Positions 5,551 through 22,487 of a stretch of 64,000 nucleotides of DNA are shown here, in pieces (position 1 is the stretch's first letter; each line of letters starts with the position of its first letter). Both the position numbers and the translations under genes were made by a program. The stretch is from the IMG/VR virus record IMGVR_UViG_3300042908_001045, positions 1-64,000 of that record; one strand, given 5' to 3'. The notes beneath the pieces are model-generated. The model ran no database searches. It was given only the letters and a program-made list of their open reading frames with translations, and was not told the DNA's origin. Origin of the DNA: a virus.

Positions 5551-5988
5551 ATGAATAAAATGGATAAATTCAGTACTAAAAAAGGTATATTATGGGCTGA
5601 GGTTGCCCAAGAGTTTCCGGCTCCTCTTGTTTTTGATCGTAGTAATCCAAGTCATATAACGCTAGAATACAGTGCTGAATATGATAAATCTAGGAAATAT
5701 TTGGGGCGAGAATATTTTGTTGATTTAAAGACTAAACTTTGGAATCACAAGATTGAGATAGTCTTGGTTGATTTGCCATCTAAAATGCCGTTTAAAGAGA
5801 AACAACCATTCATATTACTGTCTTGGCGAGAAGGGACTAAGCCAACTGTAAAGGATGGAATAGACTTAATTAATTCATGGAAAAACAAAGAACCAGTTTT
5901 TTGCCAAGATGTTAGTCATTTTGGTAAAATAAGAACAGTAATCGCTTTTTATAAATGGAGTCAACAATGGGACAGCACACAGGATTAG
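5551..5988 (+). CDS. hypothetical protein
   Basis: 145-aa ORF downstream of a promoter. Confidence 0.6.
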   Translation: MNKMDKFSTKKGILWAEVAQEFPAPLVFDRSNPSHITLEYSAEYDKSRKYLGREYFVDLKTKLWNHKIEIVLVDLPSKMPFKEKQPFILLSWREGTKPTVKDGIDLINSWKNKEPVFCQDVSHFGKIRTVIAFYKWSQQWDSTQD

Positions 5989-6263
5989 GACTAGCACTTG
6001 CAATAGCCGTGTTTGCAAGTAATTCTATTTCATCGCAAACACAAGCACAAAGTAATGAATCATTGTTAATTCATAAATATAGTGAATTAATAGATAAAAA
6101 TCCACGAGACATAAACAGCTTATTAACCCGTGGTCTGCTATACCGAAAATTATATTTTTATGATGAGGCAATAGCTGACTTTAAAGCTGTGTTAAGAATT
6201 AACCCTAAGAATATCGAAGCAAAGAGAGAGCTAGATATCACTTACAAAGCTAAAAGAGGTTGA
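5955..6263 (+). CDS. TPR protein with N-terminal signal/TM segment
   Basis: GLGLALAIAVFAS then LLTRGLLYRKLYFYDEAIADFKAVLRINP. Confidence 0.75.
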   Translation: MESTMGQHTGLGLALAIAVFASNSISSQTQAQSNESLLIHKYSELIDKNPRDINSLLTRGLLYRKLYFYDEAIADFKAVLRINPKNIEAKRELDITYKAKRG

Positions 6264-6901
6264 TTGATTTTACTAAGAGCCATTACGTATTCATTTACGT
6301 AATGGTTTTTGATTTTAGACCTTAACCCAAAAACAGAAAATTTATTGATGACTCCAATTGGATAAGCTGGGCAAACATGATGATAATCTCCTTGCCACCA
6401 TCTTGGCAGGCTTGGGACAATATCACTTGAATTAACTATTCTATACGTTGGTATTTCTAAGTCAGAGTATAACTGGGCAAAACATTTGTTTCCTGGTTTG
6501 GGAGATCCAAAAGTAACACAAGTAAGATTAGTGTTGTAGTAAAAAATTTTAATACTAAGAGCAGCTAATGTCGCTATAGCGCCTCCTAAGCTATGCCCTG
6601 TTAAAAATATTGGACGTGGGTCATCTTTTATTAATTTAAATATTTGGTGTTTAACGGATAAAAAACATTCTAAAAATCCAGAATGAACTTTAGCATTCCC
6701 AGCTAATGGAAATGGTTCTAGTTTTAAATCAATGTTTTGTCTCCAGTCTGTGATTGATTCACTGCCAGTAAACGCTATAATAATTTTGTCAGGTTGCTCA
6801 TTTATTAGAACTTCGGTATCTGTTGAAGTTCCAATAATAGTTTTAGTCTCATAAGCTCTTGCACAATGCTGACACAGATCTAAAATATCACGGTAATTCA
6901 T
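6242..6901 (-). CDS. class 3 lipase (alpha/beta hydrolase)
   Basis: VHSGF, TGHSLGGAIATL, TFGSPKPGN, DIVPSLP motifs. Confidence 0.9.
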   Translation of the reverse strand: MNYRDILDLCQHCARAYETKTIIGTSTDTEVLINEQPDKIIIAFTGSESITDWRQNIDLKLEPFPLAGNAKVHSGFLECFLSVKHQIFKLIKDDPRPIFLTGHSLGGAIATLAALSIKIFYYNTNLTCVTFGSPKPGNKCFAQLYSDLEIPTYRIVNSSDIVPSLPRWWQGDYHHVCPAYPIGVINKFSVFGLRSKIKNHYVNEYVMALSKINQPLLAL

Positions 6902-6910
6902 ATCATAATT

Positions 6911-7534
6911 ATGTTCTCTAATGTTAAAATAGTTGCCTCTTTGGTTAATCCTATTGCATTAAACGATAACTGGACCCCTAGCTTTGATGGGATTTTGTCA
7001 TATCAAATTTTGTTTAACGCTAGAATGCTTAAACAAAATCCTAGCATCGACCAAGTAAAGTCGGGATTAGCAATAGTAAAAGAGAATATCCCATTAGAAA
7101 TTGGGTATTTATCCAACGAAAAAACAAGTTGGTATTATAAAGCTAGTAGTCCGCACTATGTATTAAACAAAAAGCACAATCTTGGTACTGGAGCTACAAA
7201 ACCATGGAGAGTAACTTCTGAACTTACATGGTACTGTCGTGCTGATTTAGAAAAAATAGAAGAACTACTAGAGGCTATTCAATCGATAGGCAAATACAGA
7301 ACGCTATCTTATTCTGGTGTTAAAAGCTGGTTAGTACAAGAATTAGTAGAAGATTGTCATGTTTGGAAAGACAATAGACTTAGTCGTCCGGTCCCTTGTA
7401 TTTATTTGCAAGATGACAAGCGTGTACTCATGTGTGATTACAGGATAAAAGAGTGGGGATGGAGATGTCCCCCGTATTTGCCAGATAATCAAGCACAATG
7501 TTATATGCCTTTACACAATATTTCCAATGAGTAA
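6911..7534 (+). CDS. csf3: Csf3 (Cas5, type IV-B)-like RAMP paralog, degenerate
   Basis: Colinear similarity to 13496..14194 (PIA..D...PS.DG.L.Y; WY...SSPHY; L.RP.P; CY.P.HN). Confidence 0.75.
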   Translation: MFSNVKIVASLVNPIALNDNWTPSFDGILSYQILFNARMLKQNPSIDQVKSGLAIVKENIPLEIGYLSNEKTSWYYKASSPHYVLNKKHNLGTGATKPWRVTSELTWYCRADLEKIEELLEAIQSIGKYRTLSYSGVKSWLVQELVEDCHVWKDNRLSRPVPCIYLQDDKRVLMCDYRIKEWGWRCPPYLPDNQAQCYMPLHNISNE

Positions 7535-8930
7535 CAACATTGCCATAGCAACAGGCTGGACAATTGCTTCTACCGTTTCTAAACACTTAGATCCAAGCAG
7601 TTATTTTGTCATAAAAGAGTTATATTCTTGTACTCCGGGAATTAATTTATTAGTTCGTAATTTACTAGCTAACACAACTATTCGTTATTTATTTTTGTTG
7701 AAAGCCAGTAAATATGATTTAAACTCTGGCTCTATAGATTGTGTCTTGGATTTTTTTGCTAAAGGAGTTCAACTGGGAAAGACAAATGGTGGGAGAACAG
7801 CATGGATAGTAGATTCAAAATACACGGCTTATATTGATGCTGAAATACCAAGTATTGCACTTGATAGTTTACGTATGTCTGTTCAAGTGTATGAATTTCA
7901 AGACATTTCCTCACTAGTAGAAAAAGTTAAATCTTTTAGTGATAAAACATCTAATCCTTGGGCTTCTCCAATGATATTTCCAGAACATAAGCCAGTTAAT
8001 CTAATAACTCCTGGGCAGTTAAATGGGCATAGAATAGAGTCAAGATTTATCCATGAAGCATGGGTCAAAATATTGCATAGAGTAAGAAGTAATGGCAAAA
8101 TTAGTGTAAGTTCTAGCGATATTTTATGGCAGGAGCTACTAAACGTTATTACTGTTATTACAGATGAGCCAGAAGATTTGATATTTCCAGAGCCTAACTA
8201 TTTGCCCATAGATAATTTTTTTATTGAAAAATATGTTTATCAAATGTTAAACGGTGGAGATAATTCTAGTAGTTATGGAACTAGAATGATTAGTCATTTT
8301 GGCATTAATCAAGTTGAATCTGTTGTTAATAATCTAAAAAACAACAGAATTTCTAACAGACTTGTAATTAATCTATGGGATGTTCAAAGTGATATAAAAT
8401 CACCGTCTCCACCATGCTTAAATCATGTTTGGGTTAAAATATATGACAATCAATTGTACATGACTGCAACTTTTCGCAGTAACGATATGTTTTCTGCATG
8501 GACTTCTAATGCCATGGGATTAAGAAAACTGCAATACCATATTTTCAATCAAATCAAAGAGCATTATTTAGATGTTAAAATGGGTTCTTTGTCTATTATT
8601 AGTGAAAGCGCTCACATTTATGAAGACTCTTGGACTGCTGCTGATGATATTATTCAGTGTCATTATCAACGTATTGTTAATAGGAAAGTTTTTGAAGACC
8701 CTGTTGGAAACTTTGTTATTCGCATTGATGATAATGCCATTTTAGTCACTCACGTAACTAAAGATGGTGAACAAGTAGCTAAATACACTGGCAAGTCAGC
8801 TACTTTGATTTGTAACAAAATTGTAGCTAACAATCCATCTATATTACCAGGACATGCGGCTTATCTTGGAATAGAATTAAATAGAGCTGAGAATAGCTTA
8901 CTCTTCGGCAAAACCTACTCTCAGTTCTAA
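7527..8930 (+). CDS. thyA: thymidylate synthase, cyanobacterial type (MtrA-like N-terminus, DUF4346 C-terminus)
   Basis: PPCL, FRSNDMFSAW.SN, SAHIYE; C-terminal DPVGNF...HAAYLGIEL. Confidence 0.85.
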   Translation: MSNNIAIATGWTIASTVSKHLDPSSYFVIKELYSCTPGINLLVRNLLANTTIRYLFLLKASKYDLNSGSIDCVLDFFAKGVQLGKTNGGRTAWIVDSKYTAYIDAEIPSIALDSLRMSVQVYEFQDISSLVEKVKSFSDKTSNPWASPMIFPEHKPVNLITPGQLNGHRIESRFIHEAWVKILHRVRSNGKISVSSSDILWQELLNVITVITDEPEDLIFPEPNYLPIDNFFIEKYVYQMLNGGDNSSSYGTRMISHFGINQVESVVNNLKNNRISNRLVINLWDVQSDIKSPSPPCLNHVWVKIYDNQLYMTATFRSNDMFSAWTSNAMGLRKLQYHIFNQIKEHYLDVKMGSLSIISESAHIYEDSWTAADDIIQCHYQRIVNRKVFEDPVGNFVIRIDDNAILVTHVTKDGEQVAKYTGKSATLICNKIVANNPSILPGHAAYLGIELNRAENSLLFGKTYSQF

Positions 8931-8956
8931 TGTCTCTGTATTGTTGTCTCCTCTTT

Positions 8957-8976
8957 AGCCATCTGAAAAGATGGCT
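8957..8976. terminator. bidirectional terminator
   Basis: AGCCATCT-gaaa-AGATGGCT plus T tract. Confidence 0.7.
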
Positions 8977-8981
8977 TTTAT

Positions 8982-9251
8982 TTATAATTCACTTTTCCAG
9001 TAATTATTAAAAACTCTAATACCACCAGGACTAAAAGACAGTATGGCTATGGTTAATGCCAACTTATTAAATATTTCAGCAGCAGCGCCTTTTTTCTCTC
9101 TTTTATCAGCAAAAAGTAGCGTGTCACCATGAGACGCGATTAATTCTTGTATGCCATCTGGAATAGCCGGTAAATAGCCTAGCTTTTTTATCTGAAGCAC
9201 ATGCAAAGGTACTGCGCACTCTAAAGACGGTATTAATACGTGATTTTCCAT
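8982..9251 (-). CDS. hypothetical phage protein
   Basis: 89-aa ORF (GDTLLF...FNKLALTIAILSFSPGG). Confidence 0.65.
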   Translation of the reverse strand: MENHVLIPSLECAVPLHVLQIKKLGYLPAIPDGIQELIASHGDTLLFADKREKKGAAAEIFNKLALTIAILSFSPGGIRVFNNYWKSEL

Positions 9252-9325
9252 TGTTTTCAGTGATTACATTACTAGTATTTTACCTTAGATTGTTGAGTGG
9301 TAAGCGTTGTATGAATTTAAAATAT

Positions 9326-9368
9326 TTTTCAGAAAACACTTGACACTAAAATAAAAGTAGTTTATATT
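9326..9368 (+). promoter_or_regulatory. early promoter TTGACA-17-TATATT, same family
   Basis: TTGACA 9340-9345, GTAGTT before -10. Confidence 0.75.
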
Positions 9369-9394
9369 GAGTAGCGAGTAATCAAGGAGATATT

Positions 9395-9886
9395 ATGAAC
9401 ATTCAAGAAAAAATAGATAACATTCAAATGAACAATTTAGCTAATTACCTGCGTGTGCAGGGTGTTAGCTCGTTGGAAGAATACAAGCAAAGCAAAAAAC
9501 AAGAGTTTCTGGAGTGTGCGGATACTCCAGAAGAAGGAGAGGATGATTACAAAAAGTGGCTCGCCACTTTAGACAAAGTCCTGTCTAAAGTGACAAATGG
9601 CGGCTCCTACCCCATAGATCTCCGTTATTGGGAGATGGTGGAGGAAAAACAGTTATTTCCACAAGACGTTGTGGAGTACTTCAATGCCAATGATGGCAAA
9701 GAAGTATTAATGCCAGTAGAATACTTCTGCTCAGGACAGGAGTTGGCTGCACTCCAAGAAGCAGCACACTGGACAAAAGATACTGTTCAGGTTGAGATTG
9801 CTGGACAAATTCTAGGAAATATTCCAGAACGTCAGCCGGACCCGGCAAACAATCCACCAGCTAATAGTGGATGGGATAGCTGGTAA
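9395..9886 (+). CDS. hypothetical acidic protein
   Basis: 163-aa ORF, AGGAG RBS. Confidence 0.7.
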   Translation: MNIQEKIDNIQMNNLANYLRVQGVSSLEEYKQSKKQEFLECADTPEEGEDDYKKWLATLDKVLSKVTNGGSYPIDLRYWEMVEEKQLFPQDVVEYFNANDGKEVLMPVEYFCSGQELAALQEAAHWTKDTVQVEIAGQILGNIPERQPDPANNPPANSGWDSW

Positions 9887-9899
9887 TAGCATTGCTTTT

Positions 9900-9933
9900 T
9901 AAATTATACTTTTTGCCTTAAAAGTATAATTTA
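9900..9933. repeat. perfect 14-bp AT-rich inverted repeat (terminator or binding site)
   Basis: TAAATTATACTTTT-tgcctt-AAAAGTATAATTTA. Confidence 0.6.
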
Positions 9934-10130
9934 GTCAAATAGAATTGTACTTGAATATTAATTCAGGGAAAATCCTATGGTAGTTACTTTTTACTGAAAA
10001 TAGGGCATTGCATAATAAAGTATGAGTTTAAGCAAGAGAGATGAAATGTCCAAAGTGTAATGTTTTTTATTTATATTGCCATTGACAACATAATTTGGTA
10101 ATATAGAATCAGGAGTTACAACAAAAATAA

Positions 10131-10451
10131 ATGAATGTTATCGTATTGACAGGAATAGCGTTGAAGCCAAAACAAATTGAATTGCCTTGGGGAAAACCAG
10201 GTATTGAATTTGTGATAAAAGTTCAGCCTACAAAGCCAGGAGAACTTGATTATTTCTTTAAAGTAATTGCATCTGAAGCTAGCAGCTTTAAGGAGCAAGA
10301 TACTGTCTTGATAGAAGGTTATCTTGATATAAATCAAGAGGAATTACCAAATGGCAATAAAAATAAAAAAGCCGTTATTTACGGCAAAAAAATTGAGGTG
10401 ATAAACACCAGCTACAAAGCAGAAAGTAGCTTAGATAGTATGCCATTTTAA
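10131..10451 (+). CDS. ssb: single-stranded DNA-binding protein-like (OB fold, acidic DSMPF tip)
   Basis: MNVIVLTG...VLIEGYL...C-terminal DSMPF. Confidence 0.65.
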   Translation: MNVIVLTGIALKPKQIELPWGKPGIEFVIKVQPTKPGELDYFFKVIASEASSFKEQDTVLIEGYLDINQEELPNGNKNKKAVIYGKKIEVINTSYKAESSLDSMPF

Positions 10452-10454
10452 AGC

Positions 10455-10485
10455 AATAACCTCCGAATTATACTCGGAGGTTATT
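10455..10485. terminator. bidirectional terminator ending the csf operon
   Basis: AATAACCTCCGA-attatac-TCGGAGGTTATT. Confidence 0.8.
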
Positions 10486-10490
10486 TTATT

Positions 10491-11627
10491 TTATTCCAGA
10501 AAGCTAGAAGTATTGGTTTTGCTTAAAAAATCAGATAAAGCGGTTAATTTAGTTTTTGCTCTATCAGACAAGATAGATGAATTCTCAGTAATTGTTAGAT
10601 ATTGACCTGCTTCTTGTCCAGAGCGATAGTAAACATCAACAGAAACCAATCCACATCCAGTGTTTCCTTTACCTCCTAGATAAGGTGCCAAAGCAAATTC
10701 AGACAGAGCATTAACGATAAAACCTTCCTCTACAGAAGTTATATCACTATCCCACCGGCTAAGAAGAGTGGAGCCTTTTTGGAGTAGCCAATCACCCATA
10801 ATCATCTGTTGGCTCTTAGATTCTTTTTTGTCTTTCTTTTTATCACTTGCTCCGAATAAAGATATCTGTCCTTGGTTTTCCTGTTCTAAATGTTTTGCAA
10901 GTTCAGAATCTTTTAAGCTATCTTGTCTGGTTTGCTGCCTATACGTTAAATATTGCGTATAAGGCTTTAGATCATTTTCTAAATTTGGCATCCATTTTTC
11001 AATAGCATTTCTGTATTTTTCTGTGCTAACAACTGAATTAATGTTGTTTAACCAGTTTTCAACTCGTGATTTTTCTAGTTCGTTTTTAGCTTCTACAATC
11101 TCTTTAACTGCTTCTAAACAATTGTAAGGAATAGCAGCAGGAAGAGTGTTGTAGATATATTCAGCTGTTTCTAAACAAACTAAATATGCTCCACCCACAT
11201 TGATGCGCCCTGGAATCATCTGTGATTCTTTAGAGCCAAATAGTCCAGTTGGCTTAGCAGTTCCCAGTAAAGAAATGCCAGGAAGATATGTTCTAATCTT
11301 TTTGTCTAGCTCTAAATCGTTGCCTGTAGAGCCGTCGATAAAACCGCCAGCAAACATAGTTTGATGGGTAGTAGGATTTACAGAATATCCACCTTCCTTG
11401 AGTTTATTTAAGAAAGAACTATTACCTATTCTTCTTAATATTTTGCCTCTTAAAGCATTGCCAGAATAGACAAATACTTCTGCACTATTGTTCTCTAAAT
11501 CTCTGACCTTTTCAACTCTTAAATTGCTCTGATTCCCAATAGCTTCACCAATATGCGATAAAGGTGATAATAACTTGATTACCAAATAAAACGTTATTTT
11601 ACTTCTATTTTCGTATGGATTATACAT
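10491..11627 (-). CDS. csf2: type IV CRISPR Cas7-family backbone Csf2
   Basis: LLSPLSHIGE, YSGNALRGKILRRIG, FAGG, LP.ISLLG, G-rich loop LGGKGNTGCG. Confidence 0.85.
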   Translation of the reverse strand: MYNPYENRSKITFYLVIKLLSPLSHIGEAIGNQSNLRVEKVRDLENNSAEVFVYSGNALRGKILRRIGNSSFLNKLKEGGYSVNPTTHQTMFAGGFIDGSTGNDLELDKKIRTYLPGISLLGTAKPTGLFGSKESQMIPGRINVGGAYLVCLETAEYIYNTLPAAIPYNCLEAVKEIVEAKNELEKSRVENWLNNINSVVSTEKYRNAIEKWMPNLENDLKPYTQYLTYRQQTRQDSLKDSELAKHLEQENQGQISLFGASDKKKDKKESKSQQMIMGDWLLQKGSTLLSRWDSDITSVEEGFIVNALSEFALAPYLGGKGNTGCGLVSVDVYYRSGQEAGQYLTITENSSILSDRAKTKLTALSDFLSKTNTSSFLE

Positions 11628-12117
11628 TATTTTCTTCCTCTTCTGTAAGTTTCAATTCTTTTTCTTCTTCATGTCTTAGCCTAACTAATGCAGCAATTAG
11701 ATGGGGACAATCTTTAATTTGTTTTAAGATATGTCTATCAGTAACTCCTTGCATCTTTAAAGAATGTAAAATCTCTTCCCATCCCATCCATTGAAGTTTT
11801 ACATTCTCTTGATCTTGCTTCAACTCAACAATTTCGTCTTTGTTGTTAATCCTAAGTATTTTTTGTTGTGGGTTTAGTATTCTAGAAAAAACTGATGGAT
11901 TTAAATGATTTACCACTAGTTTTTTGGAGAAATTTTCTATGAAATCTGATACACTCCCACTAGGAATAACAGCATTAGACAGAGATGATTGAAAATATTC
12001 CCATGTCTTGATTCCCATTGCAGGAGACTTGTCTTTGTCCCTGCATAAAAAGCACCAGTAACTTAATGCACTGGCTAATCCTATTTTTGAATCATGCGTC
12101 TGAAATCCGTGCCACAT
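11620..12117 (-). CDS. cas11: type IV-B small subunit (Cas11-like)
   Basis: Small helical protein between csf1 and csf2, overlapping both. Confidence 0.65.
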   Translation of the reverse strand: MWHGFQTHDSKIGLASALSYWCFLCRDKDKSPAMGIKTWEYFQSSLSNAVIPSGSVSDFIENFSKKLVVNHLNPSVFSRILNPQQKILRINNKDEIVELKQDQENVKLQWMGWEEILHSLKMQGVTDRHILKQIKDCPHLIAALVRLRHEEEKELKLTEEEENNV

Positions 12118-12751
12118 ATCCTAACAGCGCTCCATAAGAAGTTGCTCTTGTCTCTTTTATTTTAGACTCTAATTGAGTCCATTCGTCAATACATTTCATT
12201 AATCTATCTGATCTATATTCCCCTGACATAATTTCTGTTTTTGAAAAACCAAGTTGCATAAGTTTTTCAAAATAATTCAAAGACTCAATAAAGTCTAGTC
12301 TATTTAGCCAAACAATTTCCTCTTCTAGTAAAACTGGAAAGAAATTTCTGTCATAAGCTACATGTCTAAATGGATAAGTATGCTTTTGTCCAGAAGTTGC
12401 TAAACAAATAGAGAATGGTGGTTCTGGTGGATCTATTATCCATTTTTTAATTAATTCTCTAGTTGGAATTTTGGTCGCAACTGGCAAATTATCACCATGG
12501 GGAGATTCACCAAAAGTAAAGACGGGATATCTCTCGGTTGTAGATTCAAGCCAACTCCAACATCTAGCAAATACTTTACTCCATGCTTGTTTAGATTCAT
12601 TGTAATACCATGCAGAAGTAGTGATAGCAAAATTACACTTATCGCAAATTAAGTTAGAAAAAGGATTTTTAGCCCTAGATCTCGCGGTAAATTTGTCTCC
12701 TAGTACTAATTTTTTACTAGCAGATTCTCCACAGAAAAAACAAGTTGTCAT
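12092..12751 (-). CDS. csf1: type IV large subunit Csf1 (Cas8-like)
   Basis: CxxC...CxxC Zn finger and PPEPPF....SGQKH motif. Confidence 0.8.
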   Translation of the reverse strand: MTTCFFCGESASKKLVLGDKFTARSRAKNPFSNLICDKCNFAITTSAWYYNESKQAWSKVFARCWSWLESTTERYPVFTFGESPHGDNLPVATKIPTRELIKKWIIDPPEPPFSICLATSGQKHTYPFRHVAYDRNFFPVLLEEEIVWLNRLDFIESLNYFEKLMQLGFSKTEIMSGEYRSDRLMKCIDEWTQLESKIKETRATSYGALLGYVARISDA

Positions 12752-13494
12752 GTATACCTCCTAATCTCTGGAAACATTAATGCAAACGCTTCATATTTAT
12801 CAGGAAAATGTAATCTCAGATTAGCTATTCGCCCCCAATTAATACCGGTTGTTCCAATTGGTGGTCCATTTCTAACAGTCATTCTATCTATGTCATACAT
12901 AGCAGGATATTTCAAACTAAAGTTATCAATATATTGCCAAATAGCTTCAGTTCTCCAAAATCCAACAGGACTGCAAACGACTAAATCAGCTTTAGTTTTA
13001 TAAACTAATCCATGTTTTTTCAAGTACAATGCTCTTCCTTTACTTTCTTGAGATCTAATGCCCCAAGCATATCCTTTGATATTGTTGTTTTCTGTGTACT
13101 CATCAAGTGGATCATACATCAACTTTTGATTAATAATTTTGTCCAGCTTAGTATTCATTTTACCGTCTAACGGAATGCCGTAATCTACATAAAGATTAAG
13201 TAAAGAACGAACTGGACAAAGTTCAACAACGTTTAATCCTTGCTCTTTATAATCTTCAATTAACTCTATACAATCTTCCCATTCAGCTAAGTGTCCTTGA
13301 TTGACCCAAACTAATGGGCATTGTGGATAGACAGTCGTAATCAAATGTGCGGCAACTAGACTGTCTTTGCCACCGGAGATTGAGCAGTAAACTTGAAAAT
13401 CGCACTCTATTAGCCACTGCTCAATAACTGTTTTAGCTTTACTAATAACAGATTTTAACCATGGTGCTTTAACGCCAGTTCCGGTAGATAACAT
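12748..13494 (-). CDS. cysH: CysH-like PAPS-reductase-family protein (type IV-B associated)
   Basis: PP-loop SISGGKDS, GIRSQES..R, SP...W...IWQYI...L.YP.MYD; no ECGLH motif. Confidence 0.85.
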   Translation of the reverse strand: MLSTGTGVKAPWLKSVISKAKTVIEQWLIECDFQVYCSISGGKDSLVAAHLITTVYPQCPLVWVNQGHLAEWEDCIELIEDYKEQGLNVVELCPVRSLLNLYVDYGIPLDGKMNTKLDKIINQKLMYDPLDEYTENNNIKGYAWGIRSQESKGRALYLKKHGLVYKTKADLVVCSPVGFWRTEAIWQYIDNFSLKYPAMYDIDRMTVRNGPPIGTTGINWGRIANLRLHFPDKYEAFALMFPEIRRYT

Positions 13495-13495
13495 T

Positions 13496-14194
13496 TTATA
13501 TTTTTACCGTATTATGCTTGGGCAAATAACACATTCTGCGGTTAGATAATAGCCAACCAGGTGGTTTAATACTCCAAACCAATTTTGGACAATCAACAAA
13601 TCTTGATGATACATTTTCATAAAATTCTTGTGCGTATTCTACAGGAATAGGGCGAGCTAATTTGTCTTTTCTGAAAAGATGATAATCCTGGTCTATAAAA
13701 CAAACTTCCCATTGAGAAACCTGCCCATATCCGTAGCTAGTTTTTTTCCCTAGTGCTTTACACGAAGTAATAATTTCCATAATTTCTTTGGCATTACCTA
13801 CCGCAAACCAATCAATTCTAGAAACTGTTTTAACTGGTAATGGTAAATCGTAAGATTTAGTATGTCCTACCGAAACATCTACTTTAGCTTTCTTTTTACC
13901 CCAATTACAGTTAGACTCCTGATAATCCCATCTTTTCCTGTATTTAGCTATTACAGCTTCAGAATATTGGTAATGAGGTGAACTGACAGCCCAATACCAA
14001 TCATCATTGCTTAGTTTAATTTTTAGTAATGGCAAATCAACATCAATTAAATCCGCTTCAGTTGGATTGGGATTAATAGGTATTCCCTGTTTTAACAAAA
14101 AAAAGTACTGCAATAATCCATCTAATGATGGACTATAGTTATCGTAAACAGCGATAGGCGACTGCAAATGTGCCGTTATTTGTAAATTTTCCAT
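13496..14194 (-). CDS. csf3: type IV CRISPR Cas5-family Csf3
   Basis: LQITAHLQSPIA, LDGLL, KRWD, KSYDLP, WFAVGN, LGKKTSYGYGQV.W, RPIP. Confidence 0.85.
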   Translation of the reverse strand: MENLQITAHLQSPIAVYDNYSPSLDGLLQYFFLLKQGIPINPNPTEADLIDVDLPLLKIKLSNDDWYWAVSSPHYQYSEAVIAKYRKRWDYQESNCNWGKKKAKVDVSVGHTKSYDLPLPVKTVSRIDWFAVGNAKEIMEIITSCKALGKKTSYGYGQVSQWEVCFIDQDYHLFRKDKLARPIPVEYAQEFYENVSSRFVDCPKLVWSIKPPGWLLSNRRMCYLPKHNTVKI

Positions 14195-14297
14195 GTTCTT
14201 TAATTATTTTTTTAACTAAAACATATTTTAACCAAAAAGTCAATATATGTCTTAATACTGGTTGCTAAAATTAGCTGCAAAATGCAATAAATAAGTC

Positions 14298-14334
14298 TAA
14301 GCACTATAGAACATTTTTTATTCTATAGTGCTTA
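14298..14334. terminator. 14-bp perfect hairpin upstream of csf3, probable terminator of 14338..14664
   Basis: TAAGCACTATAGAA...TTCTATAGTGCTTA. Confidence 0.65.
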
Positions 14335-14337
14335 TAA

Positions 14338-14664: not shown

Positions 14665-14673
14665 GTTTCTCTC

Positions 14674-14877
14674 CTATTCAAATAACTCAATTATTGCATG
14701 TTTTGCTTGTTTGTAGTTTTTCCCTAGAAATTCTCCGTTATCACCAAAAAAACGAGGTTCACAAGGAGATACCCACCAGCCAGATTTTCCTCTGTATTCT
14801 GCTATCCAATCTCCAATTTCTGGGCGCTCTTTCTGTATGTCGTCTATCATCTGTTGAAGTATGTCCGTTTTATTCAT
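14674..14877 (-). CDS. hypothetical protein
   Basis: 67-aa ORF in an operon with 14338..14664. Confidence 0.6.
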   Translation of the reverse strand: MNKTDILQQMIDDIQKERPEIGDWIAEYRGKSGWWVSPCEPRFFGDNGEFLGKNYKQAKHAIIELFE

Positions 14878-16685: not shown

Positions 16686-19600
16686 ATGTTTAACGCAGCT
16701 ACCGCTAATCCAGTATTTTACAGAACATATTCTCGCCATACAGAGTATGGACGCGAATCATGGGAACAAGTTTGTTCTAGAACGTTAAAAGCGTTGGAAA
16801 AACTAGGTAAATTAAACACAGAAGAAATTGCATTAATTACTAAAATGCAAAGCAGTATGAAATCATTACCTAGTGGTAGATGGCTTTGGGTTGGCGGCAC
16901 AAAATGGCTGGAAAAGCCAGCTAACTACTCTGGAGCCTATAACTGCACGTCAACTAACTTAACCAGCTGGAACGCCTTTGCTTTAATGATGGATCTAGCT
17001 ATGATGGGCTGCGGAACAGGAGCAGTCATTGAGGAAAAATACTTTAGCAGATTACCGAAAATTACTAACAGTATTAACATCGATGTTTTTGGTGAACCAG
17101 GAGATGTATCACCAGAAGAAAGACAAGAAGAAACGTCCTGGACTGCCGCAGGTAACGGAAAATTTGTTATGTATGTTGGTGACAGTCGCAACGGATGGGT
17201 TGAAGCATATAAATTATTACTGGAAGCGGCTTCTAATACTATGTATCAAGGAGAGATAAGCATAAGTGTTTGTTTATCTCATGTTCGTCCAAATGGTGAA
17301 CCACTAAAATCATTTGGTGGAGTTGCTAACCCTGTTAAAATTAAAGACCTATTTGTGCGTTGCTCTGCAATACTTAATAAAGCAGTTGGTAGGCAGCTGT
17401 CATCCATAGAATGTTGTTTGCTAATTGATGAAGCAGCAAGCACTATAGTGGCTGGAAATATTAGGCGGTGTTTACCTGGCAATGCGTTAGTGCATACAGA
17501 GTCAGGCTTAGTACCTATCGCTAAGATAAGAATAGGAGATCGTGTTCTTACCAGCAAAGGATTTTACCCTGTAACTAACTTCTTTGATCAAGGTGAGCAA
17601 TCTCTTTGCAGAATCAAAACTCAAGACGGTAGTTTTGAGTGTACAGCAGAACACAAGATTGCTGTGTTAACAGATGTCTATGGCAACTACAAAATGGTTA
17701 AAGCCAAAGACTTGAAGCAAGGTGATAGATTGATACGTGTTCTAGAAGCCACAGAATTAATACCAGTTAAATTTGTGGACATTGAGTTTGATGTACGAAC
17801 TGCTCCCACTTACGACATAGAAGTTGCCACTGTGCATGAATTTGTGTGCGAAGGCATCTTAGTTTCAAATAGCGCCGGCATGCGCCAGTTCACTTCTAGT
17901 GATAACGTAGCTGCTAACGCTAAAGCAAATCTATGGGAGCAAACACCAACTGGAGAGTGGAGAATAGATCCAGAGAAAGATGCTTTGCGCATGGCAAATC
18001 ACACCAGAGTTTTTCACCAAAAGCCTACTTATAAGGAGGTGTTTGATTCAGTAACAAGTCAATATTGGAGTGGTGAAGGAGCAATTCAATGGGCTGGTGA
18101 AGCTGTCGCCAGAGCAAATGCAGATTTATTGATTACCCAAAAGTTAAAAGCAGAGTTCTTGAATGCTTATGAGAATGGTGGAGCCAAGGAATGGATAAGA
18201 AAAAATTATCCAAGCATGCCACATGCGGAGATAGAACATAGAGTAAGTACATATGGATTAAATCCGTGTGTTACTGCTGATACATGGATTCACACAGAAA
18301 AAGGAGCGAGGCAAGTTAAAGACTTGATAGGCAAACAAACCAGTGTTTACGTTGATGGAGAATTATTTAGCACCACACCCGAAGGTTTTTGGCTAACAGG
18401 AATCAAGCCTGTGCTAAAAGTGATTACTCAAGAAGGATATGAGTTGCGTTTAACTGACAATCATCAGCTACTCAAAGTTACTGCCCAGACTCAACGTAAA
18501 CAATATTCTGAGTGGACTGAAGCTAAAGATTTAAGTCCAGGACATTATATTTCAGTCCATAACCATCGTGAAGCACAGCATTGGGACAGTTTTGGAACTT
18601 TTGACGAAGGCTGGTTAATTGGCAATTTAATTGGCAATGGCAGCATCTCGTCAACACAGTGGGGGAAAACAGCACTTTTGCGATACTGGGAAGATTCTCA
18701 AGATGAGATGGGAAGACATGCTGTTGCTCTACTTGAAAAAACTGTTGATTATGCTGGAACTACAGAATCTGGACATTACTATGAACAGCAGAATTATCGA
18801 GTAGTCCAATCAACAGGATTAGCTAGATTAGCTGCTAGTTATGACGTTACGCTAGAGAACAAAATGCCAACAGGTAAAATCGAAGAAGCAAGTTATGAAT
18901 TTTACCGTGGTTTTTTACGTGGCTTATTTGATGCTGATGGGAGCGTGCAAGGAAATCAACAAAAAGGCATTAGCATCAGATTGTCACAAAGCAATCTAGA
19001 GACTTTGAAAATAGTCCAAAGAATGCTGGCGAGATTAGGTATTATCTCAACAATTTATCAAAAAGCACAACATGAACTTGTTATCAGTAATGATAATATC
19101 TGTGTCTTTCAAAACATTATTGGATTCCAAAAACCTGACAAAGCTAATCGCTTGAATGAATTAATTACCAGATATGAGCCAAAATTAAATCGTGAGCGAT
19201 TTGTAGTTAAAATCAAAGAGATTATACCCGATGGAGTAGAAGCAGTTTTTGACTGTACTGTTCCGGGAGTTTCTCGATTTGATGGTAATGGAATTGTCGC
19301 CCATAATTGTGGTGAAATTATTGGTAGCAATTTCCATTGTGTTAGTGGTGACACGCTACTAATTACCAAAGATGGATTACACGCAATCAAAGATGTTGTA
19401 GGATGCGATGTTGAGATTTGGAATGGTAGGAATTGGAGTCAAGTACAGCCATTTAAAACTGGCAGTTCTCGCGTTCTTTATCGTGTACGATTTGCGGATG
19501 GTACGTATTTAGATGCTACCGAATATCATAGATTCTTTGTTAAGGATAGGTTTGGCAAAGAATACAAAGAAGTACAGACAAAAGACTTAATGGATGCAAG

Positions 19601-22487
19601 TAAGTATCGTATTCACACCAAGCCATTTACTATTCAGTATGATGATGGATTGGATATTGATACTAATTATGCTTATGTCTTGGGGGTAGCCGTAGGAGAT
19701 GGCACCACAGACAAAGACGACAACGCAAAAATAAGATTGTATGGCAAAAAAATTGCCTTGTCTGTGGCAGGTAATAAGTCTCCCATTAGGGAATATGAAT
19801 ACGTTACAAACTTCACTGATGTTACAAATTTAAGCTTTTCTGGGGAATTTCTGAAGAGTCTCAAAACCAAACCAGAAGCATTAAACATCATAGCAAGTTG
19901 GAATCGTGAAGCAATTTTGCATTTTATTGCTGGTTTAGCAGATACAGATGGAACAAATAGTAGTGGCAATGGTATTAGAATCTACATCTCTGATTATGAC
20001 AGAGCGTATAGAATACAATTGTTGCTAATTAAGTGTGGCATTCGCTCTTCTGTCAATCTTTGTGCTTATAAAGGAGCAGTTACAAACTATGGAGTTAGAA
20101 GTAAAGATTTGTACTGTGTACAAGTAACTGATTGTAGTAAAATCCCTTGTCAGCGATTAGACGTAAGCCAAGGTAGAGTACCTAAATTTAAAGGTAAATG
20201 GCAAGTTATCAGGAGTGTGGAGCAATTACCGGGATTGCATGACACTTACTGTTTTAATGAACCACAATATCATGAAGGTGTATTTGGAAACACATTGACT
20301 GGGAATTGTAATTTGTCAGAAATACACTTGAATCAGCTCAATCCTACTGACTATAAAGAACAAGAAGATGCTTTTAAAGCAGCTTCACTCTCAGTAGCTG
20401 CATTGCTTCACCATAGATTCACCGAGCCTATTTATCAAGAATCTAGAGAGTTAGATCCTATTGTTGGTGTTTCCTTCACCGGATTATTTGACTTTTTTGT
20501 TCATGCTTTTGGAGCAGAATGGCTTCACTGGTGGCAACAAGAGAGAGAAGACAATGAGCAAGGCAGGATATTTAAACAAAAAGAACAAGAGTATTTATCT
20601 AGATGGAAAGACATAGTACATCAAACTGTTTGGGAATATTGCGATAAACACAATCTCAAACGTCCTAATCGTTGTACTACTGTTCAGCCCAGTGGGTGTT
20701 TAGATCGCACTGCATTAAGAATTTTTGATCAAGGCTTACTTTATGCGGATGAATTGATAGCACCTGGCAGTGGTGAAACTACTAATTTGAAACTAAGTGT
20801 TCGTGAAGGAGTGTCTGTTACCACAGGAATTGCTAATCAACCATTGCAATTGATTAAAGTCACATTACAGAATGGACGTATTTTACGTATGACTCCAAAC
20901 CATCGTCTTTCTATTGATGGAAACTGGATTTATGCGTCTGACATGACTCCTGGAATGAAGATTGATTTTAGTCTTGGGGAATATCAAAACACCCAAGAAA
21001 CTCCATTACTTGATATAGATCAATTTAGCTATACAAGAGAAGCGAGGCAATTAGAAGCTGGACATAATCGTGGCATCACAGCAACTATCATTAAAATGCC
21101 TAAAACAATGTCGCCTGACTTAGCTTATTTTATTGGAGCATTGTTTGGGAATGGATGTTTAAGTATATCCGGACATCGTATTAGGTTTTCTAGTAATAGT
21201 TATAAATTACTAGAAAGACTACAACAAATAGCACAAAATCTGTTTGTTGTAGATGGGAAAATCAATAAATACTCTGACAGAGCAGCCTATGAACTAAGCA
21301 TTTCTAGTGTTCAGCTTTATAATTGGTTGCAATTGACTGGAATAGCTAAAACGGAAAAAAGTTTAAATCTTGACAGAATACCATTAGCTATTCGTTGTTC
21401 CTCCAAACAAAGCATTTTATCGTTTTTCTGTGGATTAATTGACACTGATGGATGTATTAGGTCTAACGGTTCAATGTCGATTGATAGCGCCAGTGAAGAT
21501 TTCATTAGAAATCTTCAGCAAATTGGTGAAGCTGTGGGATTATGCTTTTCTATATTCCATAACACTCAAGGAAAGAACAACCAAGCACAGAAAAGTATGT
21601 GGGGTTTATGTTTAAGCCGCATGTTATCCAAACCTGATGCTTTAGATTATTTAAACAAGAATAGTCAAAAAGCTGAGATTCGTCCTATTCCTTCACTCAA
21701 GAGAAACTATAAGTTTGATCCATATCTCATTGAATCTGTGGAATGGGAAGAAACTCCTGATTATAGCTACGACTTTGCAGTTCAGGGAGAGGACGACAAT
21801 GATTCATGGTATTGGCAAGGAGCGATTAAATCACACAACACAAAGTCTTTGTTAACTGGCGCTTCTCCTGGTTGGCATCCTCCCAAAGCACAACAATTTA
21901 TCCGTCGGATTACTTTCCGTAAAAATGATCCAGTAGCATTGGCATGTATAGACTTTGGCTATAGTGTAGTTCCATCACAATCAGATAAAGATGAAAATGG
22001 TAACTTATTAGACAACCCATTTGATGAACGTTGTACAGAATGGTTAGTGGAAATACCAGTAGCTGTATCTTGGGCAAATCTACCAGGAGTTGATGTTGAT
22101 ATTTCCAAATTCTCCGTGTTGGCACAGTTTGATTTTTATATGCAAGTGCAGAAGTATTACACAACTCACAATACTTCAGCCACACTTGAACTACGCCAGA
22201 ACGAAATTGGTGCTTTAAGTAGAGCTATATATGACTCAATCGAAAACAATGACGGGTATATTTCTGCTGCTATTCTTAGCCGTTTTGACGATTTCCAGTC
22301 TTATCCTAGATTGCCTTTTGAGCCTATTAGCAAGGACAAATACTTGCAGTTAGTAAAAGAGGTAAATCAAAGAAAAACTAATGACGATTTCTTAAATGCT
22401 TTACACAAGTATGATAATGGATTTGATGACCAATCAGGACCTGCTCCATGTGATTCAGATAAATGTCTTTTACCGGAGTCAAAGTGA
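16686..22487 (+). CDS. nrdJ: class II (B12-dependent) ribonucleotide reductase with four inteins
   Basis: ANPVFYRTYSR, AYNC, NP/CGEI, CNLSE, TTVQPSG/TKS, C-terminal CDSDKC. Confidence 0.95.
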   Translation: MFNAATANPVFYRTYSRHTEYGRESWEQVCSRTLKALEKLGKLNTEEIALITKMQSSMKSLPSGRWLWVGGTKWLEKPANYSGAYNCTSTNLTSWNAFALMMDLAMMGCGTGAVIEEKYFSRLPKITNSINIDVFGEPGDVSPEERQEETSWTAAGNGKFVMYVGDSRNGWVEAYKLLLEAASNTMYQGEISISVCLSHVRPNGEPLKSFGGVANPVKIKDLFVRCSAILNKAVGRQLSSIECCLLIDEAASTIVAGNIRRCLPGNALVHTESGLVPIAKIRIGDRVLTSKGFYPVTNFFDQGEQSLCRIKTQDGSFECTAEHKIAVLTDVYGNYKMVKAKDLKQGDRLIRVLEATELIPVKFVDIEFDVRTAPTYDIEVATVHEFVCEGILVSNSAGMRQFTSSDNVAANAKANLWEQTPTGEWRIDPEKDALRMANHTRVFHQKPTYKEVFDSVTSQYWSGEGAIQWAGEAVARANADLLITQKLKAEFLNAYENGGAKEWIRKNYPSMPHAEIEHRVSTYGLNPCVTADTWIHTEKGARQVKDLIGKQTSVYVDGELFSTTPEGFWLTGIKPVLKVITQEGYELRLTDNHQLLKVTAQTQRKQYSEWTEAKDLSPGHYISVHNHREAQHWDSFGTFDEGWLIGNLIGNGSISSTQWGKTALLRYWEDSQDEMGRHAVALLEKTVDYAGTTESGHYYEQQNYRVVQSTGLARLAASYDVTLENKMPTGKIEEASYEFYRGFLRGLFDADGSVQGNQQKGISIRLSQSNLETLKIVQRMLARLGIISTIYQKAQHELVISNDNICVFQNIIGFQKPDKANRLNELITRYEPKLNRERFVVKIKEIIPDGVEAVFDCTVPGVSRFDGNGIVAHNCGEIIGSNFHCVSGDTLLITKDGLHAIKDVVGCDVEIWNGRNWSQVQPFKTGSSRVLYRVRFADGTYLDATEYHRFFVKDRFGKEYKEVQTKDLMDASKYRIHTKPFTIQYDDGLDIDTNYAYVLGVAVGDGTTDKDDNAKIRLYGKKIALSVAGNKSPIREYEYVTNFTDVTNLSFSGEFLKSLKTKPEALNIIASWNREAILHFIAGLADTDGTNSSGNGIRIYISDYDRAYRIQLLLIKCGIRSSVNLCAYKGAVTNYGVRSKDLYCVQVTDCSKIPCQRLDVSQGRVPKFKGKWQVIRSVEQLPGLHDTYCFNEPQYHEGVFGNTLTGNCNLSEIHLNQLNPTDYKEQEDAFKAASLSVAALLHHRFTEPIYQESRELDPIVGVSFTGLFDFFVHAFGAEWLHWWQQEREDNEQGRIFKQKEQEYLSRWKDIVHQTVWEYCDKHNLKRPNRCTTVQPSGCLDRTALRIFDQGLLYADELIAPGSGETTNLKLSVREGVSVTTGIANQPLQLIKVTLQNGRILRMTPNHRLSIDGNWIYASDMTPGMKIDFSLGEYQNTQETPLLDIDQFSYTREARQLEAGHNRGITATIIKMPKTMSPDLAYFIGALFGNGCLSISGHRIRFSSNSYKLLERLQQIAQNLFVVDGKINKYSDRAAYELSISSVQLYNWLQLTGIAKTEKSLNLDRIPLAIRCSSKQSILSFFCGLIDTDGCIRSNGSMSIDSASEDFIRNLQQIGEAVGLCFSIFHNTQGKNNQAQKSMWGLCLSRMLSKPDALDYLNKNSQKAEIRPIPSLKRNYKFDPYLIESVEWEETPDYSYDFAVQGEDDNDSWYWQGAIKSHNTKSLLTGASPGWHPPKAQQFIRRITFRKNDPVALACIDFGYSVVPSQSDKDENGNLLDNPFDERCTEWLVEIPVAVSWANLPGVDVDISKFSVLAQFDFYMQVQKYYTTHNTSATLELRQNEIGALSRAIYDSIENNDGYISAAILSRFDDFQSYPRLPFEPISKDKYLQLVKEVNQRKTNDDFLNALHKYDNGFDDQSGPAPCDSDKCLLPESK
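17469..17870 (+). mobile_element. intein 1 (134-aa mini-intein)
   Basis: RR|CLPG...ILVSN|SAG; no endonuclease domain. Confidence 0.85.
18267..19307 (+). mobile_element. intein 2 (347 aa, LAGLIDADG)
   Basis: NP|CVTAD...FLRGLFDADGS...VAHN|CGE. Confidence 0.9.
19338..20306 (+). mobile_element. intein 3 (323 aa, LAGLIDADG)
   Basis: FH|CVSGD...FIAGLADTDG...LTGN|CNL. Confidence 0.9.
20697..21839 (+). mobile_element. intein 4 (381 aa, LAGLIDADG)
   Basis: PSG|CLDR...FFCGLIDTDG...KSHN|TKS. Confidence 0.9.

What the first reader, a model, noticed from the sequence alone, without database searches (positions are those of the whole stretch)
6911..8930. Second, 'thumbless' Csf3 paralog translationally coupled to thymidylate synthase
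Seen: 6911..7534 aligns end to end with Csf3 (13496..14194) but lacks the central ~30-aa segment (KRWD...GHTKSYDLP). Its G-rich loop is eroded (GKYRTLSYSGV vs GKKTSYGYGQV). Its stop overlaps the thyA start (ATGAGTAA), and it lies ~3 kb from the operon on the other strand. Inference: a repurposed Cas5 acting as an alternative cap subunit, a dominant-negative regulator, or a link between the IV-B complex and nucleotide metabolism. I do not know of a described duplicated Cas5-ThyA coupling.
Basis: partly seen in the sequence, partly recalled or inferred. Interest (0 to 1): 0.75.

Follow-up and report, generated by a model that had tools for sequence, protein, structure and literature searches.

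The report
Thumbless solo Csf3 beside phage thymidylate synthase
A lake cyanophage that already carries a complete type IV-B CRISPR-like operon also keeps a second, well-conserved Cas5 (Csf3) protein that has lost its nucleic-acid-gripping thumb; this copy belongs to an old phage-only lineage that mostly lives without any CRISPR operon, usually just upstream of a host-type thymidylate synthase, and its function is untested.

Summary

It lacks the ~36-41-aa thumb and two glycines of the G-rich loop that are 98% conserved in canonical Csf3. Its stop overlaps the downstream start (ATGAGTAA).

The interpretation needs revision:
- It is not a recent duplicate. It belongs to a strongly supported, phage-restricted "thumbless" clade under purifying selection (dN/dS ~0.10-0.15).
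- This clade occurs without any type IV-B genes in related phages, including isolates Cr-LKS4 and CrV-01T. Fifteen phage records with IV-B lack it, so it is not an obligate IV-B subunit.
- The "thyA" is a cyanobacterial-type three-domain thymidylate synthase. The pair is conserved in two deep thumbless lineages (37-39% identity) with different flanks. Each gene also occurs without the other.

Best reading, inferred only: a palm-only Cas5 acting as a cap mimic or decoy for type IV complexes, co-expressed with nucleotide-metabolism genes.

This scan noted the same kind of gene earlier on another genome (e1-6028625). A 2025 paper reported the CrV-01T homolog.

The parts
6911..7534 (+). Thumbless Csf3-like (type IV Cas5) gene, 207 aa
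7166..7204 (+). Short loop (about residues 86-98) standing where canonical Csf3 has the 36-41-aa thumb
   Evidence: The segment is 10-14 aa in the thumbless clade and mostly 35-41 aa (29-41) in about 130 other Csf3 representatives. This is the lowest-confidence block of the model, pLDDT 64. In type IV-A3 the homologous segment holds R102-K119, which is needed for interference.
7289..7321 (+). Altered G-rich loop (GKYRTLSYSGV)
   Evidence: Positions 133 and 135 are Gly in 98% of canonical family members and are replaced in the thumbless clade. G111 of the VGD motif (91% Gly) is also replaced. The altered form is conserved among orthologs.
7527..8930 (+). Cyanobacterial-type three-domain thymidylate synthase (N-terminal domain + archaeal-type TS core + DUF4346 pterin-binding domain), 467 aa
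   Evidence: Pfam PF00303 and PF14251. NCBIfam TIGR03283 E 2.7e-40. It is 45-48% identical over its full length to chromosomal TS of Nostocales and other cyanobacteria. Catalytic C297, the R317-S318-N319-D320 motif and N328 are invariant.
7527..7534 (+). 8-nt stop/start overlap ATGAGTAA
   Evidence: Read directly from the sequence. ATGAGTAA or ATGAATAA is conserved in L005, L006 and L007, and ATGA in L008 and in the P0039-type loci L062-L064.
8957..8986 (+). Intrinsic-terminator-like hairpin plus T run closing the two-gene unit
   Evidence: 8-bp stem with 4 GC pairs, followed by TTTATTTATA.
6242..6901 (-). Divergent class-3 lipase gene whose start lies 9 bp from the csf3-like start (context)
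   Evidence: Pfam Lipase_3 5.7e-29. It is a conserved neighbour only in the 207-aa lineage.
13496..14194 (-). Canonical, thumb-bearing Csf3 of the resident type IV-B operon
   Evidence: PADLOC Csf3_0_IV 3.8e-42 over the full length. TIGR03116 matches the full length at 49 bits. Its nearest relative is P0041, at 47% identity.
10491..13494 (-). Rest of the type IV-B operon: cysH (12748..13494), csf1 (12092..12751), cas11 (11620..12117), csf2 (10491..11627)
   Evidence: Pfam PAPS_reduct. PADLOC Csf1_0_IV 1.9e-23, type IV Cas11 4.2e-10 and Csf2_0_IV 1.6e-39. No CRISPR array anywhere in the genome.

Best explanation
Shown:
- Gene 6911..7534 encodes an intact, selected member of a phage-restricted clade of 'thumbless' Csf3 (type IV Cas5) proteins.
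- The clade branches inside the Csf3 of phage-borne type IV-B cassettes. It has lost the thumb, two near-universal glycines of the G-rich loop and the Gly of the VGD motif. It keeps the palm and the C-terminal core motifs.
- It is a stand-alone gene. In most lineages there is no csf1, csf2, cas11 or cysH in the genome. In this phage it sits at the head of a two-gene, terminator-closed unit with a host-type thymidylate synthase, about 3 kb from a complete IV-B operon that has its own canonical Csf3.

Inferred mechanism:
- It is a palm-only Cas5 that can probably still dock on Csf1/Csf2-type partners but can no longer grip guide or target nucleic acid through the thumb.
- It would therefore act as a cap mimic or decoy that blocks or modulates type IV (IV-B) ribonucleoprotein complexes. 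These could be the phage's own or those of the many competing phages that carry IV-B cassettes.
- Its tie to the synthase is co-expression within the nucleotide-metabolism module, not a catalytic requirement.
For: Identity as Csf3:
- BLASTP E 3e-29 to the operon's Csf3, and PADLOC Csf3_0_IV 3e-26.
- The family profile matches PDB Csf3 7xfz_B at 3e-23.

Thumb and glycine loss:
- They are confined to 10 of about 140 family representatives, 9 of which form one clade with SH-aLRT 99.

Role of the thumb:
- In type IV-A the Cas5 thumb contacts the PAM DNA, the first guide-target pair and Cas7.1. Its arginines are required for interference (PMC11519345).

Selection:
- dN/dS is 0.10-0.15, like the neighbouring synthase at 0.10-0.23.
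- 82 columns are invariant across orthologs at 55-98% identity.

Independence from IV-B:
- G002 (90% complete), G001, G003 and the isolate Cr-LKS4 have one thumbless gene and no Csf2, CysH or canonical Csf3. The positive control for Csf2 worked on the own genome.
- Thirty-nine IMG/VR loci carry IV-B cassettes. Fifteen such records, 5 of them at least 95% complete, have no thumbless copy.

The synthase is host-type and does not need Csf3:
- It is 45-48% identical to chromosomal cyanobacterial TS.
- The same TS type in IV-B-only phages follows a dUTPase-like gene or an RNR small subunit.
Against: - No binding was tested.
- The phage carries both the putative decoy and its own IV-B operon, which is awkward for a pure inhibitor.
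- The function of IV-B itself is unknown, and the role of Csf3 in IV-B complexes is unresolved (PMC7937560).
- The csf3-TS pair is kept in two deep lineages despite changed flanks, with overlapping stop and start. This hints at more than chance co-expression.
- No anti-CRISPR-associated regulator was looked for or seen beside the gene.
Confidence: 0.42

Rival explanations
1. Partner or adaptor of the thymidylate synthase. The thumbless Csf3 binds the enzyme made from the overlapping downstream gene. It would tether or regulate it, for example within a phage dNTP-synthesis or replication assembly, or on nucleic acid.
For: - The stop/start overlap is conserved in every locus of the 207-aa lineage (ATGAGTAA, ATGAATAA or ATGA).
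- The P0039 lineage (37-39% identical) has the same arrangement, although its flanking genes differ.
- The linked synthases form one clade, separated from host enzymes by a long branch with SH-aLRT 99. The pair has therefore co-diverged for a long time.
- In 39 IV-B cassettes, canonical csf3 is likewise followed directly by an enzyme gene, cysH.
- All three thumbless lineages lie within 1-7 kb of ribonucleotide reductase.
Against: - Cyanobacterial hosts, and three IV-B-only phages, use the same synthase type without any Csf3 neighbour.
- Cr-LKS4/CrV-01T-type phages have the thumbless gene but no synthase.
- Overlapping starts and stops are the rule for co-directional genes in this genome, for example within the IV-B operon.
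- The synthase keeps all residues that are invariant in host enzymes, so no new chemistry is indicated.
Confidence: 0.2
2. One reading: an alternative cap subunit that swaps with the canonical Csf3 in this phage's own IV-B complex and gives it a second mode.
For: - Both genes are present and intact in this genome and in near-identical independent assemblies, for example L067 at 98-100% identity.
- Core Csf3 motifs are retained.
Against: - The thumbless clade is found mostly without IV-B, and IV-B mostly without it.
- The two proteins are only 29% identical and are not sister lineages.
- The gene is on the other strand, in a different transcription unit.
Confidence: 0.1
3. Stand-alone RNA-binding protein. 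It would be a RAMP-fold regulator or processing factor for a phage or host RNA, or a handle-binding protein for CRISPR-like RNAs. CrV-01T has a CRISPR array, and the authors of PMC12481020 proposed its Csf3 homolog as the array's missing Cas protein.
For: - The RAMP/Cas5 fold is retained.
- Solo Cas5/Cas6-type RAMPs that bind RNA alone are known (established knowledge).
- CrV-01T combines a solo Csf3 homolog with a CRISPR array.
Against: - The elements most tied to nucleic-acid contact in Cas5, the thumb and the G-rich loop glycines, are the ones that were lost.
- No CRISPR-like array exists in this 86-kb genome.
- In CrV-01T no array lies within 20 kb of the gene.
Confidence: 0.15
4. Decaying relic of a former IV-B cassette with no present function.
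For: Two hallmark elements of Cas5 have been lost.
Against: - The frame is intact in all orthologs, at 207-209 aa.
- dN/dS is 0.10-0.15 with synonymous sites near saturation.
- The clade persists across three deep lineages.
- The predicted fold is confident and compact.
Confidence: 0.02

Closest known systems
Csf3 (type IV Cas5), e.g. PDB 8RC3_F and 7XG1_B (type IV-A1) and 8RC2_F (type IV-A3)
   Same: - Profile-level sequence homology.
- Shared N-terminal strand, SSP.Y motif, GK motif and C-terminal N...C.MP motif.
   Different: - No thumb, and no arginine- or lysine-rich thumb loop.
- Two of the three G-rich-loop glycines and the Gly of the VGD motif are replaced.
- It is encoded alone, not in a csf1-csf2-csf3 operon.
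- It scores 26.8 bits on TIGR03116, far below the curated cut-off of 140.
Canonical Csf3 of phage-borne type IV-B cassettes (this window's 13496..14194; 39 IMG/VR loci)
   Same: It is the closest sequence relative outside its own clade, and the thumbless clade nests among these proteins. Both are carried by freshwater phages.
   Different: The canonical forms always keep the KRWD...WGKRKAK...KSYDLPL thumb. They sit next to cysH, csf1, cas11 and csf2.
CrV-01T ORF58 / Cr-LKS4 g60, published as a 'Csf3 structural homolog' (PMC12481020, 2025)
   Same: It is a member of the same thumbless clade, 32.7% identical. It is also a solo gene in a cyanophage, near ribonucleotide reductase.
   Different: - About 240 aa, with a C-terminal insertion and a residual YR.YWD stub of the thumb.
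- No synthase gene in those genomes.
- The paper did not report the thumb loss, the clade, or the link to the synthase.
Anti-CRISPR proteins that mimic Cas subunits or their surfaces (e.g. AcrIF3-type mimicry; recalled from general knowledge and from the title of bioRxiv 10.1101/453720)
   Same: The proposed logic is the same: a mobile-element protein resembling a complex subunit that competes for a binding site.
   Different: This one is a true homolog of the subunit, not a convergent mimic. No inhibitory activity has been shown.
Cyanobacterial DUF4346-type thymidylate synthase (for the downstream gene)
   Same: Same three-domain architecture, 45-48% identity, and all invariant residues kept.
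   Different: It is about 30-40 aa shorter than host enzymes. It sits on a long separate branch with the other Csf3-linked phage copies.

Membership tests
Csf3 / type IV Cas5 | Significant match to family sequence models | tested here: met
   PADLOC Csf3_0_IV E 3e-26, in two stretches either side of the missing thumb. The family profile containing it matches PDB Csf3 at 3e-23. BLASTP to the operon's Csf3 gives 3e-29.
Csf3 / type IV Cas5 | Reaches NCBIfam TIGR03116 curated (equivalog) cut-off | tested here: not met
   It scores 26.8 bits against a cut-off of 140. The resident canonical Csf3 also fails, at 49.3 bits, so the model fits this phage branch poorly.
Csf3 / type IV Cas5 | Cas5 RAMP palm fold like solved Csf3 | tested here: met
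   [not shown]
Csf3 / type IV Cas5 | Thumb hairpin or loop | tested here: not met
   The segment is 10 aa here, against mostly 35-41 aa (29-41) in about 130 representatives.
Csf3 / type IV Cas5 | Glycine-rich loop (G-K-K-x-x-x-G-x-G) | tested here: not met
   The first Gly and the Lys are kept. The Gly at positions 133 and 135, 98% conserved in the family, are replaced.
Csf3 / type IV Cas5 | Encoded in an operon with csf1 and csf2 | tested here: not met
   The gene lies on the other strand in a two-gene unit with the synthase. Relatives lack csf2 and cysH altogether.
Csf3 / type IV Cas5 | Caps a Csf ribonucleoprotein and binds the 5' end of its RNA | not testable with these tools
This needs biochemistry.
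Type IV-B CRISPR-Cas system (the neighbouring operon) | csf1, csf2, csf3, cas11 and cysH present; no array, cas6 or dinG | tested here: met
   HMM hits for all five genes. No CRISPR-like repeats in the whole genome. dinG and cas6 were not seen among ORFs of the region but were not searched genome-wide.
Anti-CRISPR / Cas-subunit decoy | Inhibits a CRISPR-Cas complex | not testable with these tools
The reading is inference from the lost and retained parts.
Anti-CRISPR / Cas-subunit decoy | Adjacent aca-type HTH regulator | not tested
   The neighbours are a lipase and the synthase. No dedicated search for aca genes was made.
Thymidylate synthase, cyanobacterial DUF4346 type (downstream gene) | TS core with catalytic Cys and the R-S-x-D motif, plus a C-terminal DUF4346 domain | tested here: met
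   PF00303 1.3e-13 and PF14251 2.6e-18. C297, R317-S318-N319-D320 and N328 are invariant with 47 homologs. It aligns over its full length at 45-48% identity with annotated cyanobacterial TS.

The most novel reading that the evidence does not exclude
Csf3 may be an enzyme-recruiting adaptor, not merely a guide-RNA cap.
- In 39 phage IV-B cassettes, csf3 is directly followed by cysH, a nucleotide-activating enzyme.
- In two deep thumbless lineages, csf3 is directly followed by, and overlaps, a thymidylate synthase. That synthase has co-diverged with it, away from host enzymes.

If the thumbless Csf3 physically holds the synthase, the ancestral job of type IV-B Cas5 would be to dock a nucleotide-modifying enzyme. 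That would give a direct handle on the unknown function of type IV-B systems.
Probability: 0.12. Interest if true: 0.8.

Novelty: new variant of a known kind. Interest (0 to 1): 0.5.

Why it matters
Type IV-B systems are widespread on mobile elements, and their function is still unknown. The role of their Cas5 (Csf3) is also unresolved: it was not visible in the only IV-B structure (PMC7937560).

The thumbless clade is a natural, conserved separation-of-function variant. It keeps the palm but lacks the thumb and the G-rich loop glycines. It occurs with the cassette in this phage and without it in relatives, which gives a ready-made tool for two questions:
- which partners the Csf3 palm binds;
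- whether phages use Cas-subunit homologs against each other's type IV systems.

The conserved pairing with thymidylate synthase is the only recurring functional neighbour and can be tested at the bench. The finding also shows that IV-B cassettes are common in freshwater phage contigs: one scan returned 39 loci.

Tried and rejected
Tools unavailable:
Genomic contexts were obtained with the search for related loci instead.
No test of binding to the synthase, Csf1 or Csf2 could be made.

Searches and runs that gave nothing useful:
- The first structure run, with a 7-sequence alignment, gave an unusable model of pLDDT 55. It was replaced by a run with 142 sequences.
- Megablast of 6000-16000 against the phage collection found no match.
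- Single-sequence pattern scans of viral contigs for the window protein and for P0039 found nothing. Alignment-based scans worked.
- No CRISPR array was found in the window or in the rest of the genome. All repeats lie inside coding repeats. None was found within 20 kb of the CrV-01T homolog.
- The 145-aa gene at 5551..5988 is not related to the same-length 'seahorse' ORF upstream of the CrV/Cr-LKS4 homolog.
- The gene upstream of the synthase in the IV-B-only phage G010 is dUTPase-like, not a hidden Csf3 (hhalign probability 0.1).

RNA libraries:
- Two freshwater metatranscriptome runs from one study each hold one contig over part of the gene (7039-7500 and 7179-7401).
- These are contigs, DNA carry-over cannot be excluded, and the rest of the stretch is uncovered. 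This does not show transcription or transcript limits.

Readings considered and rejected:
- Recent in-genome duplication: rejected on 29% identity and non-sister placement in the tree.
- Pseudogene or relic: rejected on the dN/dS values.
- An exotic function for the synthase: rejected because it is full-length host-type with all invariant residues.
Full report
**What is there**

The window is the first 64 kb of an 86,305-bp virus record with inverted terminal repeats, rated 100% complete. ORF 6911..7534 (+, 207 aa) is followed by ORF 7527..8930 (+, 467 aa). The stop of the first overlaps the start of the second as ATGAGTAA. A hairpin plus T run at 8957-8986 closes the pair. A class-3 lipase gene runs divergently, and its start codon lies only 9 bp from the start of the 207-aa gene.

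About 3 kb downstream, on the other strand, lies csf3-cysH-csf1-cas11-csf2 (10491..14194). PADLOC models identify the members: Csf3_0_IV 3.8e-42, Csf1_0_IV 1.9e-23, type IV Cas11 4.2e-10 and Csf2_0_IV 1.6e-39. Pfam finds PAPS_reduct in the cysH product. No CRISPR-like array exists anywhere in the genome. This is an array-less type IV-B cassette.

- The 207-aa protein aligns end to end with the operon's 232-aa Csf3: 68/237 identical, E 3e-29. One large gap falls opposite KYRKRWD...KSYDLPL.
- These are the only two Csf3-like genes in the genome.

**It is a real Csf3**

- PADLOC Csf3_0_IV matches at 3e-26, in two stretches that flank the missing segment.
- A profile of the family with this protein as first row matches solved Csf3 (7xfz_B) at 3e-23 over the full length.
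- With a 142-sequence alignment, AlphaFold2 gives pLDDT 93.6 and pTM 0.90. An earlier 7-sequence run was unusable.
- Foldseek's top three hits are the Csf3 chains of type IV-A complexes, at E about 1e-10 and probability 1.00.
- The curated NCBIfam equivalog cut-off is not reached (26.8 against 140 bits). The resident canonical Csf3 also misses it (49.3 bits), so that model fits this branch poorly.

**What is missing, and how unusual that is**

A whole-library profile search found 642 cluster representatives of the family at E up to 1e-3. About 140 near-full-length ones were examined.

- The thumb segment is mostly 35-41 aa (29-41) and carries a conserved K/R-R-[FW]-D ... G-x-[YF]-K motif.
- It shrinks to 10-15 aa in only ten sequences. 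These are the 207-209-aa group to which the window protein belongs, a second 209-aa group (P0039), the roughly 240-aa Cr-LKS4/CrV-01T group (P0042), and one unrelated 199-aa sequence (P0089).
- The first three groups have also lost the two loop glycines that are Gly in 98% of canonical members, and the Gly of the VGD motif (91%). They keep the N-terminal strand, SSP.Y, the GK motif, W.V, D.HL, RP.P and the C-terminal N...C.MP motif.
- In type IV-A complexes the Cas5 thumb contacts the PAM duplex together with Cas8. It also holds the first guide-target pair and stacks on Cas7.1. Mutating its arginines (R102-R110 in IV-A3) abolishes interference (PMC11519345).
- The profile alignment places those residues in the segment that is deleted here.

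**It is not a recent duplicate**

In a maximum-likelihood tree of 64 sequences, nine thumbless proteins form one clade (SH-aLRT 99) on a long stem. The clade is nested among the thumb-bearing Csf3 of phage IV-B cassettes. The resident canonical Csf3 pairs instead with P0041, at 47% identity.

Orthologs of the short gene at 55-98% identity are all 207-209 aa, with 82 invariant columns. Pairwise dN/dS is 0.10-0.15, comparable to the synthase (0.10-0.23) and lower than or equal to the lipase (0.16-0.26). Synonymous sites are near saturation, so these ratios are approximate. The altered loop is therefore a conserved derived state, not erosion.

**It does not depend on the type IV-B operon**

- Related virus records G001, G002 (90% complete, 93.6 kb) and G003, and the isolate Cr-LKS4, each have one thumbless gene. 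They have no canonical Csf3, no CysH and no Csf2. The Csf2 model did find the window's own gene, at 1.2e-38.
- Conversely, a pattern scan returned 39 IMG/VR loci with thumb-bearing Csf3. All have csf2, nearly all have cas11, and most also have cysH and csf1, with cysH directly following csf3 wherever it is found.
- Fifteen of those records, five of them at least 95% complete, contain no thumbless copy.
- The window's phage and near-identical independent assemblies, such as contig L067 at 98-100% identity, carry both.

So there are three states: cassette only, thumbless only, and both. The 'both' state seen here is the exception.

**The synthase and the coupling**

The 467-aa protein has three parts. 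The N-terminal ~165 aa are weakly MtrA-like. Residues 170-370 are an archaeal-type TS core (TIGR03283, 2.7e-40). Residues 390-466 are a DUF4346 pterin-binding domain.

It is 45-48% identical over its full length to the chromosomal enzyme annotated as thymidylate synthase in Nostocales and other cyanobacteria. It keeps every residue that is invariant among them, including C297, R317-S318-N319-D320 and N328. It is thus a host-type nucleotide-metabolism gene, not an exotic enzyme.

For a functional link:
- The pair, with overlapping stop and start, is conserved in all loci of the 207-aa lineage.
- More tellingly, it is also conserved in the P0039 lineage, where the Csf3-like protein is only 37-39% identical and the synthase 47%. 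There the flanking genes differ: an FGE-sulfatase-family gene, a sliding clamp, and RNR about 5 kb away.
- The Csf3-linked synthases form one group, split from 43 cyanobacterial enzymes by a long branch with SH-aLRT 99. The pair has therefore been inherited together for a long time.

Against a functional link:
- The Cr-LKS4/CrV-01T lineage has the thumbless gene but no synthase.
- Three IV-B-only phages have this synthase type far from their cassette. In them it follows a dUTPase-like gene or an RNR small subunit.
- Overlapping starts and stops are routine in this genome.

One common thread is that all three thumbless lineages lie within 1-7 kb of ribonucleotide reductase.

**Mechanism**

What is shown is the anatomy: a palm-only Csf3 that is conserved, solo and phage-restricted, co-transcribed with nucleotide-metabolism genes. 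What it does is inferred.

- I favour a cap mimic or decoy for type IV complexes (confidence about 0.4). The parts lost are those that engage nucleic acid and Cas7.1, while the palm and C-terminal motifs are kept. In type IV-A these parts form clefts with Cas8. IV-B cassettes are common in the same phage pool, and type IV systems are thought to act in competition between mobile elements (bioRxiv 10.1101/780106, title and abstract).
- Co-residence with the phage's own cassette is a difficulty for this reading. It leaves room for a regulatory role.
- The adaptor-for-synthase reading (about 0.2) rests on the deep conservation of the pair and on the parallel with csf3-cysH adjacency.
- A solo RNA-binding role (about 0.15) and a lineage-specific alternative cap (about 0.1) are not excluded.
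- A relic is excluded by selection.

**Prior knowledge**

This scan had already noted a thumbless orphan Csf3 coupled to thyA on another genome (e1-6028625). My independent tests agree with that note. The present window adds the co-residence with a complete IV-B operon.

**Limits**

- RNA-library contigs cover only part of the gene and do not prove transcription.
- Several related virus records are incomplete. Absences in G001 and G003 therefore weigh less than those in G002 and Cr-LKS4.

Noticed in passing
L023-L061 (39 IMG/VR loci): Array-less type IV-B cassettes are common on freshwater viral contigs. Their usual gene order is cas11-csf2-csf3-cysH-csf1, a circular permutation of the window's csf3-cysH-csf1-cas11-csf2. 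In several loci the cysH-position gene is only 22-28% identical to the window's, or csf1 is not detected nearby.
   Followed up: partly
window 16686..22487: The 1933-aa ribonucleotide reductase matches the Cr-LKS4 B12-dependent RNR in four separate blocks (residues 2-280, 393-528, 1199-1337, 1714-1933). This implies three inserted segments of roughly 110, 670 and 375 aa, presumably inteins.
   Followed up: no
L006 12065..20620, L007 5416..13971, L008 3474..11990: In the relatives that lack the IV-B cassette, the synthase is followed by a giant ORF of more than 2,840 aa. It is not the RNR, and its first 1,500 aa have no Pfam match.
   Followed up: partly
L078 2434..2988 and L077 1669..2694: In IV-B-only phages the same synthase type is preceded by a dUTPase/dCTP-deaminase-like gene (overlapping it) or by an RNR small subunit. 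The thumbless Csf3 therefore occupies the slot of a nucleotide-metabolism gene.
   Followed up: yes
window 6901..6911: The start codons of the divergent lipase and Csf3-like genes are 9 bp apart (similarly close in L005, L006; 23 bp in L008). Each promoter must therefore lie inside the other gene or further upstream.
   Followed up: no
protein P0089 (199 aa, JGI metagenome): This is a second, apparently independent thumb-reduced Csf3 (15-aa segment) in a different branch of the family, next to thumb-bearing P0099 (SH-aLRT 93).
   Followed up: no
window 6200..9300 in public runs: The stretch is held nearly complete (95-100% of sampled words) in lake-water metagenomes of 2017-2025 from many studies. 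This phage lineage is persistent and widespread in lakes.
   Followed up: partly
L080 23858..25864 (CrV-01T gp061) and L004 12967..14973: An IS605 OrfB (TnpB-type) transposase gene sits directly beside the RNR in the Cylindrospermopsis phages, a few kb from their thumbless Csf3 homolog.
   Followed up: no
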